A DNA stretch of 64,000 bases from a virus (taxonomy: Duplodnaviria > Caudoviricetes), in the IMG/VR virus record IMGVR_UViG_3300036803_000075, positions 1 through 64,000 of that record. One strand, written 5' to 3'. Shown here piece after piece: positions 3,747 to 54,435 of the stretch (its first letter is position 1; the number at the start of each line of letters is the position of its first letter). A program made the position numbers and the translations under genes. Below the pieces are notes generated by a model that was not told the origin of the DNA, did no database searches, and worked only from the letters and a program-made list of their open reading frames with translations.

Positions 3747-4236
3747 CGAGGGACTCGTAGTGAACCAGCCACGTGCCGCGCTTGGTGGTCGGATCGACCT
3801 TGACCACGTCCGCGTAGCCGCCGCGCTGGGCAATGCTCTGGGCAAGGGAGCGAGCGTCCGACTCGGTGCCCTTGGGGTCGGTGTGGGTGCTACCTGGCCG
3901 GTCGTAGTCCCGGTAGGCGTTGCCCTGCTCATCAACAGCCCAGGTGAACGGATAGCTGTAGATCACCCGGTAGTCGATGGTCTTGCGAGCCACGACGTAG
4001 TCCCGGTCCCGCCAGGCCAGGTACTTCTTCCAGGCCCCGTTGCCCCGGCTGACCGCGAAGCGCTCACTGACCATCCGGTCCAGCACGCTCTTAGCGCGGT
4101 CTGTGGTCAGCTTGGCCTTACGAGCCACAGCCGACGGGGTGAGCGGCTTGCCGGCGGTCTCCAGGATCTCTTCGACCCGGTCCGCCTGGTTGTAGAAGAG
4201 AGCGTCGACGTTGGCCTTGATGTCCATGTCACTCAT
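3739..4236 (-). CDS. putative winged-helix DNA-binding protein
   Basis: LTPSAVARKAKLTTDRAKSVLDRMV HTH-like segment; AGGAGG RBS before MSDMD. Confidence 0.6.
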   Translation of the reverse strand: MSDMDIKANVDALFYNQADRVEEILETAGKPLTPSAVARKAKLTTDRAKSVLDRMVSERFAVSRGNGAWKKYLAWRDRDYVVARKTIDYRVIYSYPFTWAVDEQGNAYRDYDRPGSTHTDPKGTESDARSLAQSIAQRGGYADVVKVDPTTKRGTWLVHYESLDV

Positions 4237-4255
4237 GATGTCCTCCTGAAGCTTG

Positions 4256-4299
4256 ACCTCTGGCTTACCCAGCATGACATCTTAAAATCTCTGGCACAA
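4256..4299 (-). promoter_or_regulatory. early promoter with two GCCAGAG(A/G)T elements
   Basis: TTGTGC-17 nt-CATGCT, same layout as 3024-3068. Confidence 0.7.
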
Positions 4300-4318
4300 G
4301 GTCTACGCACGAAGATCT

Positions 4319-4540
4319 TTAAAGAGTCGTCAAGAACTCCTTCACGGCCAGCCGGTGGCTCTCTCCTTTCCGCACGTGTACATGGCGGCCGAGGTCTCCC
4401 TCCAGTCGCAGCGGACAGATGATGGTCAAAGGGGAGGACAGAGCCTTACTCATCCTGGTGGAGACCAGATACGGCCCGTGCTGGGAGATGGTGAGGAGTG
4501 ATTCCGTACGGCTGAGTTTGACGACCTCGTGAGTAAGCAT
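4319..4540 (-). CDS. small hypothetical protein
   Basis: ORF directly downstream of a motif promoter. Confidence 0.4.
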   Translation of the reverse strand: MLTHEVVKLSRTESLLTISQHGPYLVSTRMSKALSSPLTIICPLRLEGDLGRHVHVRKGESHRLAVKEFLTTL

Positions 4541-4560
4541 GGGAGAACTTCCTACTAGGG

Positions 4561-4604
4561 ATCTCTGGCCTTCAAAATGTGACATTTAAAGATCCCTGGC
4601 ACAA
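4561..4604 (-). promoter_or_regulatory. early promoter with GCCAG(A/G)GAT elements
   Basis: TTGTGC-17 nt-CACATT plus downstream GCCAGAGAT. Confidence 0.7.
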
Positions 4605-4656
4605 CTGCGCATGTAAAAGGACCCCCGGCGGCATTGGCGGGGGTCCAGCTCATGGG

Positions 4657-4854
4657 TTACATCAGAGTTCTGACCGTTAGGGCGGCCAGACCCAAGATAG
4701 GCCCGAGGACGCCGACCAAGATCAGGCAACAGCCGGACGGGCGATTCTTCCGCTGGCGCTTGTACTTCTGGTTAGTCTTGTTGGCGAGATTCTGGATATT
4801 GCGGGCTTTATAGGCCCTTTGCTGCATAAGAAAGCGTTTGTTCTCTTCGTCCAC
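4657..4854 (-). CDS. small membrane protein
   Basis: Basic N-terminus and C-terminal TM helix. Confidence 0.5.
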   Translation of the reverse strand: MDEENKRFLMQQRAYKARNIQNLANKTNQKYKRQRKNRPSGCCLILVGVLGPILGLAALTVRTLM

Positions 4855-4877
4855 CAGACAACCCTATCGGGCGATCT

Positions 4878-5180
4878 TTACCGATCCCAACGGAGCTGGA
4901 AGGTCACCGGAACGACATTGCGAGCTGACCGGCGGACCAGCCGGCGAGCGGTCAACATGGTCAGATACCGGCTGGCGTCGTACTCGGTCTGACGACTGAT
5001 GTCCGCAACGGTCTCGACCATGAACGCCCCGTCGTGGTTGGTACGGGCATTGGCTTCGGTGAGTGCCGCCAGCGTGAGATAGGTCAACCGCTCGGCCGAG
5101 GACATGTCTCCGACAGCGATGGCCTGTAGCTGACCAAAGGCACGGCGCAGCGCTGAGATAGCGACGACAGTCGGGGGCAT
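4878..5180 (-). CDS. putative HTH DNA-binding protein
   Basis: TVADISRQTEYDASRYLTML HTH-like segment; GGAGG RBS; motif promoter at 5200-5225. Confidence 0.55.
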   Translation of the reverse strand: MPPTVVAISALRRAFGQLQAIAVGDMSSAERLTYLTLAALTEANARTNHDGAFMVETVADISRQTEYDASRYLTMLTARRLVRRSARNVVPVTFQLRWDR

Positions 5181-45645: not shown

Positions 45646-47004
45646 ATGGCCGACGTGAGCCACTCTTACGATCAAACTCCGGTAGCCGAGATCGAGCAGG
45701 TTACCCGCATGTTCCACAAGGGTGCGACCATTCGCGTCTTCGTCATAGGCGGAAAGTACTGGTACGCGGCCGTCGACATCGGCAAGGTGCTAGGCATCGG
45801 GCGTAACGGGCCAGAAGTCCGAAGGTACCTGGAGACCGGCTTCATGACCGTCAACCTGACCGGGTTCGCCGAGGCCAACCCGGGTCTGGTGGACCTGGCC
45901 CAGACCAAAAACGGTCTGCTGGTCCTGGTGAACGACCCAGCGGTCGACACCCTCACCCGCTACGGCATGCAAATGGGCCGGTGTGTGGAGAAAGAGGGCT
46001 GGTACATGATGGCGAAAGAGGAGCCTCAACAGCAGGTCATCCAGACCGCAGCCAAGCCGTTGTCGCAGACGCCGGTCACCGAACTCATCGAGCAGGAGGA
46101 GACCACAGAAGAGATCCTCAAAGCTTTCGAACAAGCAGAGAAGGTACACGTGACCATCAGGCCAAAACCGAGACCGCCAAGGAAGGACACCCGCATGCCC
46201 AACAGCCCCATCAGCATCCGTCCGGAGAGGATTAGCCCGGACCAGGCCCGTCGATACCTGGCGGCCAACACCAGCAACCGCAACATCCGCCGTGAGCTGG
46301 TCAAGGTTTATGCCCGCGATATGGCCGAAGGCCGTTGGAAGGACAACGGCGAGACGATCAAGTTCTCCAAGGACGGCGTCCTGATAGACGGCCAGCACCG
46401 GCTGGAGGCCGTCGTCCAGGCCAACGTGACCATCTCCATGGTGGTGGTGCGAGGGCTCAACGCCGACGTACAGGCCACCATCGACGCCGGAGCCAAGCGG
46501 ACCGCAGGCGACGCTCTCAAGCTGCGCGGTGAGATGTACGGGCGCACCCTCGCTGCCGTCGCCCGACGCTGCCTGATCTGGGAGGCCAGCGACCGCAAGG
46601 ACATGGACCCGTCCCATCGGTCGGTTTCCCACCAGGAGGTCATCGATTACGTGGCCGCCCACCCCGACCTGCAGAACGCCACCGACTTCGCCCAGCACAT
46701 CACCGGAAGCCGGCCGGCTCCGTTGTCGGTCATGGGCTTCAGCTACTGGGCGCTCGCACAGATCTCCCAGGATGATGCCGACCTGTTCTTCGAGGGCCTG
46801 ACCACAGGCGTTAACCTGACGCCGGGCAATCCCGTACTGGCGCTGCGGAATCGGCTGCTGGATGTCCGCTACCGCAGGTACTCAGCTCAGGATGACCGAG
46901 AGAAGGTCGCGCTGATCTTCAAGGGCTGGAACTTCTTCCGGGCCGGTCGCCCTGTCCAGATCCTGAAGTTCATGAAGTCCGAGTCCTTCCCCATCCCGAA
47001 GTAA
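45646..47004 (+). CDS. BRO-N-like / ParB-like (DGQHR) protein
   Basis: IRVFVIGGKYWYAAVDIGKVLG (BRO-N like) and LIDGQHRL; possible internal start at 46195. Confidence 0.7.
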   Translation: MADVSHSYDQTPVAEIEQVTRMFHKGATIRVFVIGGKYWYAAVDIGKVLGIGRNGPEVRRYLETGFMTVNLTGFAEANPGLVDLAQTKNGLLVLVNDPAVDTLTRYGMQMGRCVEKEGWYMMAKEEPQQQVIQTAAKPLSQTPVTELIEQEETTEEILKAFEQAEKVHVTIRPKPRPPRKDTRMPNSPISIRPERISPDQARRYLAANTSNRNIRRELVKVYARDMAEGRWKDNGETIKFSKDGVLIDGQHRLEAVVQANVTISMVVVRGLNADVQATIDAGAKRTAGDALKLRGEMYGRTLAAVARRCLIWEASDRKDMDPSHRSVSHQEVIDYVAAHPDLQNATDFAQHITGSRPAPLSVMGFSYWALAQISQDDADLFFEGLTTGVNLTPGNPVLALRNRLLDVRYRRYSAQDDREKVALIFKGWNFFRAGRPVQILKFMKSESFPIPK

Positions 47005-48106: not shown

Positions 48107-48180
48107 GGGACGGTAGCTCAGTCGGTTAGAGCGGCGCTCTGATAAGGCGCAGGCCGGAGGTTCGATTCCTCCTCGTCCCA
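48107..48180 (+). tRNA. tRNA-Ile(GAT), first element of the repeat array
   Basis: Cloverleaf; GCGCT-CTGATAA-GGCGC anticodon arm. Confidence 0.9.
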
Positions 48181-48680
48181 CGGCTACTCAGGTAGCTCGT
48201 GGCGCGGTTGGGCATGGCACGGCCAGGCGAGGCACGGCCTGGTTTGGCGCGGCGGGGCATGGCTTGGGATTTACCAGGACGACCGGCAGTCTCTGGGGTT
48301 CGAGACCTCAGCGTCCACGCCCACTTTGGTGGGTCATGGTGCGGTCGGGCGTGGCATGGCGTGGCACGGCGTGATGCGGCAAGGCTTGGGATCTACGGGG
48401 TGACTGGCAGCCATCAGGGTTCGAGGCCCTGACATCCACGCTCGCTTTGGGCGGGTCAGGGCATGGCCGGACGCGGTTCGGCACGGTGGGGTGCGGCATG
48501 GCGTGGTGCGGCATGGCTAGGCCTGGCGTGGGATCTACAGCGGCAGTGGCACACGTCCTGGTTCGAGTCCAGGAGCCGCACGCACGGCTCGGCTGGGTCA
48601 GGTGTGGCAGGGCGACGTGTGGCATGGCTGGGAATATACAGCGGCAGATGCGTCCTGGTTCGAATCCGGGAGTCTGCACG
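48181..48680 (+). repeat. GGY-NN pentamer / mini-tRNA array, left arm (4 tracts, 4 mini-tRNAs); putative guide-RNA array
   Basis: Tracts 48201-48265 (13), 48338-48387 (10), 48460-48529 (14), 48586-48630 (9); mini-tRNAs 48277-48317, 48398-48438, 48540-48580, 48641-48678. Confidence 0.9.
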
Positions 48681-48808
48681 CACTACGAAGCTGAGTAGGT
48701 TGGCTAAGCCAACCCCTATCAGCCTAACCACTACTTGACGCAGAGTCGAAAAGGTGATTCCATTCCTCTCGTCATAACCGCCAGAGATCAGGGAGAGGAA
48801 CCCCAAAA

Positions 48809-49414
48809 GTGGCGATCAACGATATGAAGCTAAAACTGACCGGGACGACCCCGGTGCTGTTTCACAACAGCCAGCTCGTCAACCCGTTCAACCCGATCAA
48901 CCGGGAGAAGAAGAAGCTCACGGACAAGCGCACCAAGCAGACCGACGAGGACCGCATCCAGGTCGCTCGGCTGGAATGGACAGGCGGCTGGTACTGGAAC
49001 GACGAGCACGGACCCATCCTGCCGATGATCAACGTCTACGCGGCGCTGCTGAAGGCGGCCAAGAGCACGCGCAACGGTCCTCTGGTCGACAAGGGCGTCA
49101 ACTTCTTGCGCCTGACCGAGCCCCTGCAGTACGACGGCCCCCGTGACCTGGACGGCCTGTGGGGCAACGGCATCGGCGAGGGTGGCGACCACCCCTCTCC
49201 GTACGTCGATTACCAGGCCGTCGGCCAGCAGGCGGTCAAGATCATGCGCTGCCGGCCGAAGCTGAGCGAGTGGGAGCTTGACACCGTCTTCGGAGTGGAC
49301 GACACGGTCATCGATCCCGAGGCGTTCCTCGGATTCATGGCCTACGCTGGCAAGTACATCGGTGTTGGGGACTTCCGTGCTATGTACGGTAAGTTCAGCG
49401 TCAAGGAGGTCTGA
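48809..49414 (+). CDS. stand-alone RAMP/Cas7-like RNA-binding protein (putative effector of the GGY-NN array)
   Basis: KLTGTTPVLFH first strand, PILP motif, RCRP, WEL strand, C-terminal glycine-rich loop AGKYIGVGDFRAMYGKF; embedded in the array. Confidence 0.75.
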   Translation: MAINDMKLKLTGTTPVLFHNSQLVNPFNPINREKKKLTDKRTKQTDEDRIQVARLEWTGGWYWNDEHGPILPMINVYAALLKAAKSTRNGPLVDKGVNFLRLTEPLQYDGPRDLDGLWGNGIGEGGDHPSPYVDYQAVGQQAVKIMRCRPKLSEWELDTVFGVDDTVIDPEAFLGFMAYAGKYIGVGDFRAMYGKFSVKEV

Positions 49415-49415
49415 G

Positions 49416-49970
49416 TTGACTGCTATCTTCGACTCCGAAAACCCGCAGTGGCGGCCGATCTACGACGGTCTTAAGAAGGCCGGTCTCGAATTCGATCGTC
49501 TTTTCAGCTGGGACACACTGAAAGCCATCGCAGGATACGACATCCGGCTGAATCGCAGTGCCTTCTACGCGGCAGTAAAGCAGCTGGAAGAGCACGACAA
49601 GCGTACGTTGGTCAGTGTGTGGGGCAAGGGATATCGCGTGGCTCCAGCGCCCGAGCATCATAAGCTCGGGCTCAAGCACCAGCTCAAGGCCAAGCGTGCC
49701 GTACGGCGCGGCGCGCGCAAGGTCAAGGCGGCTGACACGTCTCATCTCACTGCCGAGCAGATCCACGCCAACGAGCAGCTGATCTTCCGACTCCATCGTC
49801 ACGAAACTCAGCTGATCAACCACGAGACCCGGATCAGCGCACTGGAGAGGGAGACTGGGAAAACTCGCCGTGAGCTGGACGAGTTGAACAAGCAGTCTGA
49901 GCTGGCACGCCGGCTCAAGGCGCTGGGTATCAATGTCCCCAAGAGTGCCCCTGACACCGTCGAGGGGTAA
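49416..49970 (+). CDS. winged-helix plus coiled-coil accessory protein
   Basis: TTG start with AAGGAGG RBS right after the RAMP gene; LVSVWGKGYRV wing motif; C-terminal coiled coil. Confidence 0.7.
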   Translation: MTAIFDSENPQWRPIYDGLKKAGLEFDRLFSWDTLKAIAGYDIRLNRSAFYAAVKQLEEHDKRTLVSVWGKGYRVAPAPEHHKLGLKHQLKAKRAVRRGARKVKAADTSHLTAEQIHANEQLIFRLHRHETQLINHETRISALERETGKTRRELDELNKQSELARRLKALGINVPKSAPDTVEG

Positions 49971-51470
49971 CAGGGCCTGGCCTGGCCGGGTGAGGCGGGA
50001 CGAGGCTAGGTGAGGCGAGGTTCGGCAACGTCGGGCCGGGTAGGGCGAGACTGGGCGCGGCGAGGTCAGGCTGGGTTGGACAAGGAAGCACAAAATGGGT
50101 GACTGGCAGTCTCCGAGGTTCGAGGCCTCGGCACCCACGCTCCTTTCGGGAGTCAAGACGGGGCAGGGCGCGGTGAGGTGTGGCCTGGTGGGGTGAGGCT
50201 TGGCGTGGTGAGGCTTGGGATTTTAAAATGGACGACCGGCAGCCACTAGGGTTCAAGGCCCTAGCGTTCACGCTCACTACGGTGAGTTGAGGCCCGGTTT
50301 GGTACGGCAAGGCGTGACAGGGCATGGCTCGGCCCGGCGAGGTCCGGCGCGGCAGGGCGCGGCATGATTGGGCGCCGTATGCCATGGCAAGGTGAGGCAT
50401 GGCAAGGAATTACAGAGCGAGCGGCACACTTCCGGGTTCGAGTCCTGGACGCTCGCGGCCGTCCTCGGGCGGCTCGTGGCAAGCCTAGGTTGGGTTTGGC
50501 ATGGCAATGTTAGGTAGGGCTCGGCTTGGTCCGGTGCGGCAAAGCGCGGTTAGGTTTGGCATGGCAACAAACTGGGTGAGCGGCACACTCTTCGGTCCGA
50601 GTCCGAAGCACCCACGGCTACTCCGGTAGCTCGTGGCTTGGTGCGGCGCGGCAGCGCATGGTTGGGCCTGGCATGGCAGGGAATTTACTGAGCGGATGGT
50701 CGTACGGGAGGTTCGACTCCTCTTGCGTTCACGCCCTCTTTGGGGGTCAGGGCACGGCTAGGCTGGGCGCGGTAGGGCTGGGTACGATTCGGTCTGGCGG
50801 GGCAAGGCTTGGGATATACCAGTGCGAATGGCATACCTCTCGGTTCGAGTCTGAGACGCTCACGCTCTCTTCGAGAGTCAGGGCAGGGCGACGCCAGGCA
50901 TGGTTAAGTTGGGTGCGGCTGGACGCGGTGCGGCAAGGTTTGACTTGACGTGGCAAGGCGAGGCAGAGCTGGGTCAGGCAGGGCAGCAACAACACTGTGT
51001 CGACGGTCTTCGAGAGGGTTCGACTCCCTCTGACACGCGCTCTCTTCGAGAGTCAGGGCGGGGCTAGGCAGGGCAACGTATGGCCCGGCGCGGTAAGGCT
51101 TGGCTAGGTTGGGTTGGGTCCGGTGGAGTGTGGCTAGGTATGGAGTGCCGACGGTCTGCGAGGAGGTTCGACTCCTTCTGGCACACGCTCTCTTCGGAGA
51201 GGCGGGGCTAGGTGCGGCGTGGCTTGGTGGGGCACGGTGCGGTCAGGCCGGGCATGACAAGGATCAAAAATCTGGACGAGCAGCACACTTCTGGGTGCGA
51301 GTCCCAGACGCCCACGCTCACTCCAGTGAGTACGTGGCCAGGCGTGGCATGGTAGGGCACGGTCCGGCTGGGTCGGGCGCGGTAGGGCTAGGCACTGGGC
51401 ATGGTTTGGTACGCCTAGGTGAGATGTGGCATGGCTTGGTATGGCAGGGATCTGTTAAAATCCCTGCCAT
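49971..51470 (+). repeat. GGY-NN pentamer / mini-tRNA array, right arm (10 tracts, 9 mini-tRNAs); putative guide-RNA array
   Basis: Tracts of 22, 12, 23, 18, 9, 12, 21, 17, 12 and 22 pentamers separated by ~41-nt acceptor+T-arm mimics and short hairpins; ends in an ATGGCAGGGA/TCCCTGCCAT hairpin. Confidence 0.9.
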
Positions 51471-51819: not shown

Positions 51820-52007
51820 AAGTGCAAGGCTGCCGAACCGAAGACGACCCCGAGGGGATGTTGCACTTCAAGGATGGCAATGACCCCAACTTGTATGCGT
51901 ACTGTGGCGTTCGGGTCCAAATCATGACCAGCAATTGGCTTCTAGCCAATTGCTGTCCTATTTGCGAGGCGAAACGTCTTACGGTCTATAAGGAGCAGAA
52001 GATCTAG
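51804..52007 (+). CDS. small Cys-rich protein
   Basis: ORF overlapping the end of the RF-like gene. Confidence 0.45.
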   Translation: MDMPVEVQGCRTEDDPEGMLHFKDGNDPNLYAYCGVRVQIMTSNWLLANCCPICEAKRLTVYKEQKI

Positions 52008-52360
52008 TCTCCGTTCTCCCGCTCCTTGCGCTGTTCCAGCTCCTGGTCGCTCTCGTCCTCGGCCGTCATCAGGTCGTCGCCGTCGTCCACACCCAGTCGG
52101 CGGAGGATCTCGTCGAGCTTGAGATTGAGAGCGAGATTGTCCCGGTTCTGGGTGTTCTGAATGATGAACACCATCAAAAAAGTGATGATCGTCGTGCTGG
52201 TGTTGATCACCAACTGCCAGGTGTCTGAGAAGCCCAACAGCGGCCCGCTGGCGCCCCATACGAGCAGAGCGCCCAGCGCGGCCACAAACACCCAGCCCCG
52301 GCCGAGAATGGCCGAGATCTTGCTGGTGAACCTGGTGAAGACCCCACCCTTTTTACTCAT
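52004..52360 (-). CDS. low-affinity iron permease (Fet4-like) family protein
   Basis: FSDTWQLVINTSTTIITFLMVFIIQNTQNRD signature; ATGA-coupled to the upstream gene. Confidence 0.85.
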   Translation of the reverse strand: MSKKGGVFTRFTSKISAILGRGWVFVAALGALLVWGASGPLLGFSDTWQLVINTSTTIITFLMVFIIQNTQNRDNLALNLKLDEILRRLGVDDGDDLMTAEDESDQELEQRKERENGD

Positions 52361-54435
52361 GCTGTCGGAGTCACCCAAGTAGTTCCATTCCACACCTTAA
52401 CGGGCGCCTGTACCCATGAGGTTCCATTCCAAATCTTTACTGGCGCATGCACCCAAGTAGTTCCATTCCACACCTTCATCGCGCCGCCGGAGGGGGCCGT
52501 GTACGTCTTCGTCAGCGTGATGTGGCTGGCACCCGAGGAGTCATAGCCGGTGCCCGTGACGGTGATCTGCTGGCCATTATCGACAACATCGAACCAGCCA
52601 TATTGCTGGCTGTAGACCGAGCTGCTCTGGGGCACCGGGTAGATCCCAGCGGAGTACGTACCGTTGCCGGCATAGGTTGTCTGGTCCAGCGGTGAGGCAC
52701 AGAAGATCTGCAGACCGCTCGGGGAGTGGGTCCCGTCATCCGCCGCCAGCACATGCAGGTCACCATGGATCATCATCACCCGGACACCGTTGGCGTTGAT
52801 GAAGTTGCCGATCTCCGTACGCTCGGTGTTGTAAGCCGACCAGGTGTCGTCGCCGACGTACGTGGTGCCGTTGTTCCACGCGTCCTCATGGAACCAGATC
52901 TTGACCGGCTCGGGCTGCAGCAGCTGAGCCTTCAGCCAGTCCTTCTGGGTGCTCCCGAGCTTGGTCTTGCTGGAGTTGTCCGTCTGGGCGATCGGACTCA
53001 TGTACGACCGGCCGTCGGTGCAGATATAGCGCACCCGGCCGGCCACGAAGGTGAAGTACGTTCCCGCGTTGTCCGCCGCCGGCAGCGTATAGCTCGGCAC
53101 CCGGTTCCGGTAGACGGACTGGGCAGCCGCGTGGGCGACCGCAGTACCGTCGTTGTTCGAGCCGCCGCCGGAGTCGTGGTCAGACCAGATGTAACTGATG
53201 CTGGTGCTGGAGAAGAGCGACTGCTGCCGCTGGCAGCTCATCACCTCGTCCCACGCCCGGTTGAACAACGTCGTGTCATTGGCCACGATGTCTCGGTAGT
53301 TCAGGTCTCCCAGGTGCTGGAAGAACAACGCCGTCCGAGATCCCGCCCCCACCGAGCCGGTGCGTGTGCGGATCTGGTCGAAGTTGATGTCATTACTGAA
53401 GGTCTTGGCACATGAGGCAGCAGCGAAGGAATAGCTAGCGGGGCTGCCTGCTACCGGGAACGTCCGCACCGTACCGACAGACTGGGTGTCGATCGTTCCG
53501 TCCAGCTCCAGACCGTAGTAGTACGTGGTGTTCGCAGTCAGCCCTGAAATAGCGAACTTAGCCAATCCATTGGCGTCAGGCGTGGCCGCGCTGGAAAAGA
53601 CTGGGCTCGTCAGCAGATCGCTAGTGGTAGAGACCTTCACCCTCGCGGACGCCGTGTTAACCGTTCGAGAGGAGACATTGAATCCAGTAGCGGTCGCTCC
53701 ACCGGCCCAACGGGAAAGGCAGGTCTGGTACATCGCTGGGTATCCGACATCGGAAAATCCCGCATTCGCTGCGTAATAAGCGATAGCGGCAGTGGCGTTA
53801 ACCGTCCCTACCACGCCGCAGTACATAGCCGTGCCGGTGTTGAATGTAGCCGTGCTGGTGATGGTCTGGGCAGGTGAGCCAAAGGCTGCAGTCGGGAAGG
53901 ATCGAACCTCCAGCTGCCCGACCGTGGCAGAGAAAGTCACCTTCCATTCAATGCGACCCCAGGTATTCGCCGTCAAGGCACCCGTGGTGGTCGTGGCGGC
54001 AGACGCTCCTGTCGAATCCCGAGCTGAGATCAGACCACTAGAAAGCACTCGCAGAGTAGCCATGATAGCGCCCGAAGTATTCAAGATCGCCATGACGGCT
54101 TGGGAGCTGCCTGGAAGCGAGGGAAAGTTAACGTCGATCCAGCCATAAATGGTGGTCGCGCTCGTCTGGAACATCCCCGCTGGACTAGCGGCGCCAGTGT
54201 TCCACCGGGTATACGCCTGGGCGTCGGTGGCATTCGCTACTACGTGAAGGGTATTGACTCCGGTCGACCGTACGACCGTATTGCTGTAGGCCAATGCTGC
54301 CGTACCACCGATCGTGGGCAAGAAGTCAAAGGCCCATCCAGGCCCACCACCAGAGTTGCCGGCAGTGGTAGGCATGTTAGGCACCACCAGCGCCGCACCA
54401 TTGGGGCCATTCAGGCTATTGAAAACTCGCGTCAT
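52357..54435 (-). CDS. PhoD-like alkaline phosphatase with lectin-like/FN3 N-terminus
   Basis: FAAASC, HLGDLNY, WSDHD, TDGRS, LGSTQKDWL, HGDLH; C-terminal K(V/I)WNGT(T/S)W x3. Confidence 0.8.
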   Translation of the reverse strand: MTRVFNSLNGPNGAALVVPNMPTTAGNSGGGPGWAFDFLPTIGGTAALAYSNTVVRSTGVNTLHVVANATDAQAYTRWNTGAASPAGMFQTSATTIYGWIDVNFPSLPGSSQAVMAILNTSGAIMATLRVLSSGLISARDSTGASAATTTTGALTANTWGRIEWKVTFSATVGQLEVRSFPTAAFGSPAQTITSTATFNTGTAMYCGVVGTVNATAAIAYYAANAGFSDVGYPAMYQTCLSRWAGGATATGFNVSSRTVNTASARVKVSTTSDLLTSPVFSSAATPDANGLAKFAISGLTANTTYYYGLELDGTIDTQSVGTVRTFPVAGSPASYSFAAASCAKTFSNDINFDQIRTRTGSVGAGSRTALFFQHLGDLNYRDIVANDTTLFNRAWDEVMSCQRQQSLFSSTSISYIWSDHDSGGGSNNDGTAVAHAAAQSVYRNRVPSYTLPAADNAGTYFTFVAGRVRYICTDGRSYMSPIAQTDNSSKTKLGSTQKDWLKAQLLQPEPVKIWFHEDAWNNGTTYVGDDTWSAYNTERTEIGNFINANGVRVMMIHGDLHVLAADDGTHSPSGLQIFCASPLDQTTYAGNGTYSAGIYPVPQSSSVYSQQYGWFDVVDNGQQITVTGTGYDSSGASHITLTKTYTAPSGGAMKVWNGTTWVHAPVKIWNGTSWVQAPVKVWNGTTWVTPTA

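What the first reader, a model, noticed from the sequence alone, without database searches (positions are those of the whole stretch)
48809..49414. Stand-alone 201-aa RAMP (Cas7/Csm3-like) protein with no cas operon
Motif order fits a RAMP RRM fold: first strand KLTGTTPVLFH, GPILP..VYAAL (compare the IPGSSLKG motif of Csm3/Cas7), a thumb-like segment ending IMRCRP, the WELDTVF strand, then a helix and glycine-rich loop AGKYIGVGDFRAMYGKFSV. A GCCAGAGAT element at 48780-48788 ties it to the early regulon. A minimal solo RAMP in a phage could be an ancestor-like class 1 effector or an anti-CRISPR-type decoy. The fold call is pattern recognition only.
Basis: inference. Interest (0 to 1): 0.82.

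Follow-up and report, generated by a model that had tools for sequence, protein, structure and literature searches.

The report
Vipr protein of phage VIPR system
The 201-residue gene is a Vipr protein, the small Cas7-like subunit of a phage VIPR RNA-guided DNA-silencing system first described in 2026 preprints, and it sits with a partner gene between 14 pentamer-repeat guide RNAs, so it is a genuine new example of a known family.

Summary
The ORF at 48809-49414 (+) is real and is a Vipr protein. Its sequence matches the solved SUSP1 Vipr (PDB 36pp_D, E 2e-17, nearly full length) and phrog_4652 (E 5e-42). A confident AlphaFold model (pLDDT 93) matches almost only CRISPR RAMPs (Csm3, Cmr4, type VII Cas7; Z 8-10). 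The residues that SUSP1 Vipr uses to hold the GGY bases are invariant here: H19, R149, D188 and R190.

The protein is not solo. Four GGY-NN guide units lie upstream and ten downstream on the same strand. A Vap1-like winged-helix gene follows at 49416-49970. No cas genes occur in the 107.7-kb phage record.

The anti-CRISPR decoy idea is not. The GCCAGAGAT motif is real (9 copies against 0.7 expected), but "early regulon" is untested.

The family is in print (bioRxiv 10.64898/2026.04.26.720920, .720927 and 2026.10.15.759431). This scan has noted VIPR loci on other DNA before: 372 notes in at least 284 genomes.

One local peculiarity: 13 guide tails are tRNA-like minihelices, and a true tRNA-Ile heads the array. 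The word "tRNA" does not occur in the held text of the three preprints. No natural target was found.

The parts
48107..48181 (+). Genuine tRNA-Ile (GAT) at the head of the upstream guide array. It is followed by the same 'A-CG-small hairpin-TCG' trailer that follows the guide tails.
   Evidence: ARAGORN; Rfam tRNA, 71 bits; trailer comparison.
48201..48678 (+). Upstream vrRNA array of four units: U1 48201-48317, U2 48338-48438, U3 48460-48580, U4 48601-48678. Each has 6-14 GGY-NN pentamers and a tRNA-like tail.
   Evidence: Period-5 GGY scan. Every tract of 6 or more units in the window is on the + strand and flanks the gene.
48780..48788 (+). GCCAGAGAT leader or promoter-proximal motif, 21 nt upstream of the vipr start.
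   Evidence: 9 copies in the window against 0.72 expected. All 15 genomic copies lie just upstream of a ribosome-binding site and start codon.
48809..49414 (+). vipr gene: a 201-aa Vipr protein, a minimal single-RRM RAMP.
   Evidence: PDB 36pp_D 'SUSP1 Vipr protein', E 2e-17; phrog_4652, E 5e-42; AlphaFold pLDDT 93; RAMP fold matches; conserved H19, R149, D188, R190.
49416..49970 (+). vap gene (Vap1-like): 184 aa, TTG start 2 nt after the vipr stop, AAGGAGG 6 nt upstream. An N-terminal winged helix is followed by a long coiled-coil hairpin.
   Evidence: BLASTP to LittleE gp33 (E 6e-7) and to wV8 gp94, the gene after vipr in a SUSP1-type phage (E 1e-5). Homologues lie downstream of vipr in 14 related loci. 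Model pLDDT 87, H-S-H-H-S-S topology. Weak fold hits are all winged-helix DNA binders.
49974..51470 (+). Downstream vrRNA array of ten units: D1 49974-50137, D2 50162-50270, D3 50291-50455, D4 50478-50614, D5 50635-50731, D6 50751-50862, D7 50882-51037, D8 51057-51185, D9 51201-51314, D10 51336-51447. D1-D9 end in tRNA-like tails. D10 ends in a 9-bp hairpin (51443-51468).
   Evidence: GC skew is +0.20 over 50-52 kb.
48277..51314 (+). Thirteen tRNA-like minihelix tails. Each has a 5-bp acceptor-like stem, an ~11-nt linker with GGCA, a 6-bp stem closing a 7-nt TTCGAnn loop, the 3' acceptor strand, A, CG, and then a small hairpin.
   Evidence: Alignment A2. 97.9% of cells are paired against 66.8% in shuffles. 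47 double-change cells against 13.5. Slid controls give 30-53%.

Best explanation
The gene encodes Vipr, the only subunit of the effector of a phage VIPR (Viral Interference Programmable Repeat) system.

Mechanism, taken from the solved SUSP1 homologue and inferred for this protein:
- One Vipr protomer binds each GGY-NN pentamer of a guide RNA (vrRNA), and the protomers build a helical filament.
- H19 and D188 read the first G.
- R149 (thumb) and F189 hold the second G.
- R190 and the glycine-rich loop pocket the pyrimidine.
- The NN bases stay free to pair with double-stranded DNA, skipping every third target base.
- The complex blocks transcription of the bound gene, most likely in a rival phage, prophage or satellite.
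- The downstream winged-helix protein is a Vap1-like helper.

Shown here:
- homology to the solved Vipr;
- the RAMP fold;
- conservation of the RNA-contact residues;
- 14 same-strand GGY-NN guide units around the gene, plus one solo tract elsewhere in the genome;
- the conserved vipr-vap pair.

Inferred, not shown: expression, RNP formation, DNA binding, silencing and the identity of the targets.
For: Sequence:
- phmmer against PDB chains finds 36pp_D 'SUSP1 Vipr protein', E 2.1e-17, residues 6-199 against 4-188.
- BLASTP to the wV8 (SUSP1-type) homologue gives E 3e-26.
- phrog_4652, E 5e-42.

Fold:
- The AlphaFold2 model has pLDDT 93.1 and pTM 0.86.
- The top Foldseek PDB hits are type VII Cas7, Csm3, Cmr and Cas6 chains; 39 hits have E <= 1e-3.
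- An exhaustive VIA search gives Csm3, Cmr4, gRAMP and type IV/VII Cas7 at Z 8-10.2 over 130-159 residues.

Residues named in bioRxiv 10.64898/2026.04.26.720927 align to this protein as follows:
- H17 to H19.
- K33 to K35.
- R39 to R41.
- K82 to K85.
- R138 to R149.
- D177 to D188.
- W178 to F189.
- R179 to R190.
H19, R149, P150, D188, R190, G185 and G187 are invariant in 24 homologues and across LittleE, Trine and wV8.

Guides:
- All 16 tract calls of 6 or more period-5 GGY units in the window are on the + strand, within about 620 nt upstream and 2.0 kb downstream of the gene. They merge into 14 guide units. None lies on the - strand.
- 33 of 37 related IMG/VR loci also carry same-strand tracts next to vipr, with one minus-strand tract in total.

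Partner gene: Vap homology and synteny.

No guide matches the phage's own genome above the shuffled controls under the 1-nt skip rule, as published for other VIPRs.

NN composition fits codon positions 1+2 (+6.7 and +22.2 bits) far better than the other registers (-30 to -93 bits).
Against: - No natural target was found. Nine guide patterns were scanned exactly in IMG/VR, GTDB genomes or JGI metagenomes. They gave nothing or one hit judged to be chance.
- Identity to the solved protein is only 27-28%.
- F replaces the stacking W178.
- K88 of SUSP1 aligns to P91.
- The guide tails differ from the SUSP1 pseudoknot, so filament capping and RNA maturation may differ.
- Nothing here shows expression or activity.
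- The NN-composition test mostly reflects the low GC of NN, which has other possible causes.
Confidence: 0.9

Rival explanations
1. The protein is an RNA-binding or RNA-processing RAMP that acts on RNA only, not on DNA. It could be Cas6-like, cutting or chaperoning the pentamer array, or Csm3-like, targeting transcripts.
For: Cas6 chains appear among the fold hits (4ilm_J, 3zfv_B). The closest folds, Csm3 and Cmr4, are RNA-targeting subunits. The cryo-EM preprint reports that VIPR can also pair with single-stranded RNA.
Against: The solved homologue silences DNA targets on either strand and needs a DNA third strand to complete the filament. The non-target-strand clamp residues K82 and R39 are kept here as K85 and R41. 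The tRNA-like tails offer a processing route that needs no Cas6-like activity.
Confidence: 0.05
2. The protein is an anti-CRISPR-type decoy. A lone RAMP would soak up host crRNAs or poison host Cascade or Csm assembly.
For: The gene is phage-encoded, small and Cas7-like, with no cas genes in the record.
Against: It keeps the specific GGY-reading residues of Vipr and is embedded in 14 cognate GGY-NN RNAs on the same strand, with a conserved Vap partner. The vipr-plus-tract arrangement is conserved in 33 of 37 relatives. No anti-defence or defence profile matched (PADLOC).
Confidence: 0.02
3. The locus is a decaying or inactive VIPR remnant. Some tracts have degenerate units, so the protein may no longer work with them.
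For: Several tracts have 1-4 non-GGY units (for example D4 16/20 and D7 9/12). No targets were found.
Against: The ORF is intact with all key residues. The preprint notes that internal degeneracy of vrRNAs is frequent. Compensatory changes in the 13 tails show selection on RNA structure.
Confidence: 0.03

Closest known systems
Vipr of Escherichia phage SUSP1 (type II VIPR; PDB 36pp; bioRxiv 10.64898/2026.04.26.720920 and .720927)
   Same: Homologous over nearly the full length (E 2e-17) and about the same size (201 against 202 aa). The GGY-contact and DNA-contact residues are conserved. The gene is followed by a Vap1-like winged-helix gene. vrRNAs of GGY-NN pentamers lie both upstream and downstream. 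It is phage-encoded.
   Different: Only 27-28% identical. F replaces W178. There is a 9-residue insertion before the thumb (122-130). It has 14 guides where SUSP1 has 4, and tracts of up to 21 units where 9-16 are reported. The tails are tRNA-like minihelices and not a pseudoknot. The source is a high-GC (62%) phage, presumably of actinobacteria.
Unannotated homologues in actinophages: Mycobacterium phage LittleE gp34 and Gordonia phage Trine gp41 ('hypothetical protein')
   Same: 38-39% identical. They have flanking GGY-NN tracts on the same strand, a downstream Vap homologue, and vrRNA tails with the same GGTTCGA T-loop minihelix.
   Different: They have fewer guides: LittleE has 2 upstream and 3 downstream, Trine has 2. 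The records do not annotate them as VIPR. Trine gp40 is called across two guide units.
CRISPR class 1 backbone RAMPs (Csm3/Cas7 of type III-A, Cmr4, type VII Cas7)
   Same: RRM core, thumb hairpin and glycine-rich loop. Best structural matches are Z 8-10.2, TM 0.4-0.5. Both follow the logic of one subunit per fixed step of the guide.
   Different: Sequence identity is 6-16%. No Pfam RAMP model matches. There are no cas genes, no CRISPR array and no second RRM. The step is 5 nt and not 6. The guide code is non-contiguous.
Engineered polycistronic tRNA-gRNA arrays
   Same: Guides are separated by tRNA-shaped elements that host tRNA-processing enzymes could cut.
   Different: Here the elements are natural minihelices without D and anticodon arms. 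Cleavage is not shown.

Membership tests
VIPR system, Vipr protein | Sequence homology to an experimentally characterised Vipr | tested here: met
   36pp_D SUSP1 Vipr, E 2.1e-17, residues 6-199 against 4-188. wV8 homologue, E 3e-26.
VIPR system, Vipr protein | Minimal single-RRM RAMP fold with a thumb and a glycine-rich loop | tested here: met
   pLDDT-93 model. Csm3, Cmr4 and Cas7 are the top matches: Foldseek E 3e-5, VIA Z up to 10.2.
VIPR system, Vipr protein | GGY-recognition residues (SUSP1 H17, R138, D177, W178, R179) | tested here: met
   H19, R149, D188 and R190 are invariant in 24 homologues. W178 is replaced by the aromatic F189.
VIPR system | vrRNAs of tandem GGY-NN (YNNGG) pentamers next to vipr on the same strand, with hypervariable NN | tested here: met
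   14 units flank the gene, none on the - strand, and all NN strings differ.
VIPR system | Conserved structured 3' tail after each repeat tract | tested here: met
   13 tails align and show compensatory changes. The structure is a tRNA-like minihelix, not the SUSP1 pseudoknot.
VIPR type II (SUSP1 / P. fulva) | vap1 accessory gene (predicted winged-helix DNA binder) directly after vipr | tested here: met
   Homology to wV8 gp94 (E 1e-5) and LittleE gp33 (E 6e-7), plus a winged-helix and coiled-coil model. The homology is weak.
VIPR type II (SUSP1 / P. fulva) | Placement in the type II clade of the published Vipr phylogeny | not testable with these tools
   The preprint's tree and tables are not held. 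Type II is inferred only from the Vap1 likeness and the locus layout.
VIPR system | Guides match natural DNA targets under the 1-nt skip rule | tested here: inconclusive
   No self-target. No match in 83 related or fetched loci. Nine exact-pattern scans gave nothing or a chance-level hit. Only exact seeds could be searched.
VIPR system | vrRNA expression, Vipr-vrRNA RNP formation and transcriptional silencing | not testable with these tools
   This needs small-RNA sequencing, a pull-down and a reporter assay.
CRISPR-Cas class 1 effector (Cas7/Csm3) | Encoded in a cas operon beside a CRISPR array, and matched by Cas7/RAMP profiles | tested here: not met
   No Pfam, NCBIfam or PADLOC match. No PF03787 or Cas1 in the record.

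The most novel reading that the evidence does not exclude
In this clade of VIPR systems from high-GC phages (this phage, LittleE, Trine and several IMG/VR relatives), the guide RNAs end in tRNA-like minihelices and the array starts with a real tRNA-Ile. The vrRNAs would then be cut out by host tRNA-maturation enzymes (RNase P, RNase Z, perhaps with CCA addition). The Vipr filament would be capped by a tRNA-elbow mimic and not by the SUSP1 pseudoknot. This would be a natural counterpart of engineered tRNA-guide arrays. The word 'tRNA' does not occur in the held text of the three VIPR preprints.
Probability: 0.4. Interest if true: 0.65.

Novelty: new member of a known kind. Interest (0 to 1): 0.4.

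Why it matters
The finding turns a 'hypothetical protein' family into a named function in high-GC phages. The family is phrog_4652, which includes gp34 of Mycobacterium phage LittleE and gp41 of Gordonia phage Trine. The function is the protein half of a programmable, CRISPR-like DNA-silencing system.

A profile of the family finds about 5,200 clusters at 50% identity, against roughly 660 published representative loci. The family is therefore much larger than what is in print.

This locus is a rich example, with 14 guides plus one solo guide and tRNA-shaped guide tails. It could show how vrRNAs are matured in bacteria that lack the enterobacterial context. The protein itself adds no new principle.

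Tried and rejected
- Pfam, NCBIfam and PADLOC gave no match for the protein.
- Megablast of 20 kb of the window against the phage collection found no near relative.
- The host could not be assigned. The genome search draws no relatives for a virus record. A genome-contig scan with the close-homologue alignment found no relative.
IMG/VR loci were used in their place.
- The word-based homologue search for Vap found only itself. tblastn against the fetched loci recovered its homologues.
- Target search: exact 1-nt-skip patterns from guides U1, D2, D9, D6, D10, the solo tract, D4 and U3 gave nothing in IMG/VR, GTDB genomes or metagenomes, apart from one IMG/VR hit.
- That one hit was for the D6 seed, at L084 1517-1542. 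It extends to only 21/24 bases. The skipped base falls on codon position 1, not the wobble position. About one such hit is expected by chance, so I rejected it.
- Mismatch-tolerant scoring found nothing above shuffled guides in the phage's own genome or in 527 kb of fetched loci.
- Single-sequence folding of whole vrRNAs was uninformative, with z between -1.6 and +0.5. The tail structure therefore rests on the covariation count.
- The Foldseek PDB copy predates the Vipr entries, so the model could not be superposed on 36pp directly.

Full report
**The observation.** The ORF 48809..49414 on the + strand encodes 201 residues from a GTG start. A purine-rich ribosome-binding stretch lies upstream. 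The window is part of a 107,724-bp linear IMG/VR virus record with 62% G+C, estimated at 73% complete. It carries phage DNA polymerase, primase, DnaB-like helicase, tail and baseplate genes. The record has no Cas1, no Pfam RAMP match and only one copy of this gene.

**What the protein is: sequence.** General profile libraries are silent (Pfam, NCBIfam, PADLOC). The protein matches phrog_4652, a family of unknown function, at E 5e-42.
- tblastn finds full-length relatives in 128 phage records. Most are Felix-O1-like coliphages. Others are Mycobacterium phage LittleE, Gordonia phages Trine and MakoManhole, and Pseudomonas phages. All are annotated as hypothetical.
- A sequence search of all PDB chains gives one significant hit. 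It is 36pp_D, 'SUSP1 Vipr protein', E 2.1e-17, aligned over residues 6-199 of 201.
- Three 2026 preprints describe this family.
- According to them, Vipr is a roughly 20-kDa single-RRM RAMP, proposed to be older than the CRISPR RAMPs.
- It polymerises one protomer per GGY-NN pentamer on a guide RNA (vrRNA).
- It reads double-stranded DNA with the NN bases while skipping every third target base, and it silences transcription of rival mobile elements.

**What the protein is: structure.** An AlphaFold2 model built on 24 homologues is confident, with pLDDT 93.1 and pTM 0.86.
- Foldseek against the PDB returns type VII Cas7, Csm3, Cmr and Cas6 chains, with a best E of 3e-5 and TM up to 0.50.
- An exhaustive structural comparison with 48,161 representative chains puts Csm3, Cmr4, gRAMP and type IV/VII Cas7 at the top, with Z 8-10.2 over 130-159 aligned residues.

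**Functional residues.** The cryo-EM preprint names the SUSP1 residues that hold the GGY bases and the DNA. In the pairwise and multiple alignments they correspond to:
- H17 to H19
- K33 to K35
- R39 to R41
- K82 to K85
- R138 to R149
- D177 to D188
- W178 to F189
- R179 to R190

H19, R149, P150, G185, G187, D188 and R190 are invariant in 24 homologues. They are also invariant across this phage, LittleE, Trine, wV8 and two IMG/VR relatives.

**The protein is not alone: guide RNAs.** A scan for period-5 GGY tracts of six or more units finds 16 tracts in the 64-kb window. All are on the + strand and all flank this gene. None lies on the - strand. They resolve into four guide units upstream (48201-48678) and ten downstream (49974-51447). 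Each has its own NN string. One further tract lies outside the window at 93178-93237.

**The protein is not alone: partner gene.** The next gene (49416-49970, 184 aa) is weakly but specifically similar to the gene that follows vipr in LittleE (E 6e-7) and in the SUSP1-type phage wV8 (E 1e-5). Homologues sit downstream of vipr in 14 fetched loci. Its model is a winged helix followed by a long helical hairpin. Its weak fold hits are all winged-helix DNA binders. This agrees with the published description of Vap1.

**The arrangement is conserved.** Among 37 related IMG/VR loci examined, 33 have same-strand GGY-NN tracts beside vipr. Only one minus-strand tract occurs in all of them.

**Guide tails.** Thirteen of the fourteen units end in a conserved element. 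It has a 5-bp acceptor-like stem, a linker, a 6-bp stem closing a TTCGAnn loop, the 3' strand, an A, CG and a small hairpin.
- On the 13 copies, 97.9% of cells pair, against 66.8% in shuffles and 30-53% with slid partners.
- Eight of eleven pairs show changes on both sides.
- A genuine tRNA-Ile (48107-48181) precedes the first guide and is followed by the same trailer.
- LittleE and Trine tails carry the same T-loop minihelix. The Felix-O1-type wV8 tails do not.
- The word 'tRNA' does not occur in the held text of the three VIPR preprints. Their figures and supplements are not held.
- Processing by tRNA-maturation enzymes is my inference.
- Other first-stage notes on this window describe the array, the minihelices and the tRNA-Ile. 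I saw these features before reading those notes and tested them here.

**Targets.** Under the 1-nt skip rule no guide matches the phage's own genome better than shuffled guides. The preprint reports the same for other VIPRs. No guide matches 527 kb of fetched related loci.
- Nine exact seed patterns were scanned in IMG/VR, GTDB genomes and JGI metagenomes. They gave nothing, apart from one 18-base seed hit.
- That hit extends to 21/24 bases, puts the skipped base on codon position 1, and is within chance expectation.
- The NN dinucleotides fit codon positions 1+2 of this phage's genes on either strand (+6.7 and +22.2 bits over background). The other registers score -30 to -93 bits. This agrees with wobble skipping, but it mostly reflects the low G+C of NN.

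**The GCCAGAGAT motif.** It is real, with 9 copies in the window against 0.72 expected. There are 15 in the record, each 10-25 nt upstream of a ribosome-binding site and start codon. Several lie a few bases after a TTGACA-N18-TACTCT promoter-like pair. It is probably a shared leader or promoter-proximal element, and vipr has one. Nothing shows that the set is 'early'.

**Verdict.** The decoy alternative and the word 'solo' are not. The protein is a new member of the Vipr family, probably of the Vap1-bearing type II kind. The type rests only on the Vap1 likeness and the locus layout.

A profile of the family finds about 5,200 clusters at 50% identity, of which 1,263 have E <= 1e-30. This scan has already logged VIPR loci on other DNA, with 372 notes in at least 284 genomes.

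Interest in the protein itself is moderate to low. The tRNA-like tail variant is the part that could be new.

Noticed in passing
genome 93178-93237 (+), outside the window (G000:C1): A solo GGY-NN tract with 12 of 12 perfect units, far from vipr. A terminator-like hairpin follows it and it has no tRNA-like tail. It may be a fifteenth guide with a different 3' end.
   Followed up: partly
window 2088, 3024, 3056, 4287, 4561, 10560, 32258, 35963, 48780; six more copies beyond 64 kb: GCCAGAGAT(C) occurs 15 times in the record, always 10-25 nt upstream of a ribosome-binding site and start codon. Some copies lie just after a TTGACA-N18-TACTCT pair. It looks like a phage-specific leader or promoter-proximal element.
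   Followed up: partly
L002 (Gordonia phage Trine MH271318) 4088-4891: The annotated CDS gp40 runs across two vrRNA units with tRNA-like tails. Only its 3' part (4463-4792) is Vap-like, so the start is probably called too far upstream.
   Followed up: partly
L001 (Mycobacterium phage LittleE) 3175-3440 and 4666-4990: LittleE gp34/gp33 is an unannotated VIPR locus with two upstream and three downstream guide units. It lies between the tape-measure gene and the genes annotated 'tail sheath' (noted as minor tail subunit) and minor tail protein. Its tails carry GGTTCGAGTCC T-loops like those here.
   Followed up: partly
window 51443-51468: The last guide unit (D10) has no minihelix. It ends in a 9-bp hairpin (GGCAGGGAT...ATCCCTGCC) directly before the small release-factor-like gene region, which another note covers.
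   Followed up: no
window 52004-52393 (-): A phage-borne homologue of the low-affinity iron permease family (PF04120, E 1.7e-37). This is an unusual cargo gene next to a purple-acid-phosphatase-like hydrolase (52357-54435).
   Followed up: no
window 45646-47004 (+): A 452-aa protein with a weak anti-repressor (Ant)-like N-terminus and a ParB-like segment (phrog_5931, E 5e-72). It lies in the same plus-strand island as the VIPR locus.
   Followed up: no
window 50478-50567: Guide D4 has AT-rich NN strings. Read on the opposite strand as codon positions 1+2, it gives a plausible peptide-like string and the best coding-register score of all guides (+7.4 bits).
   Followed up: partly
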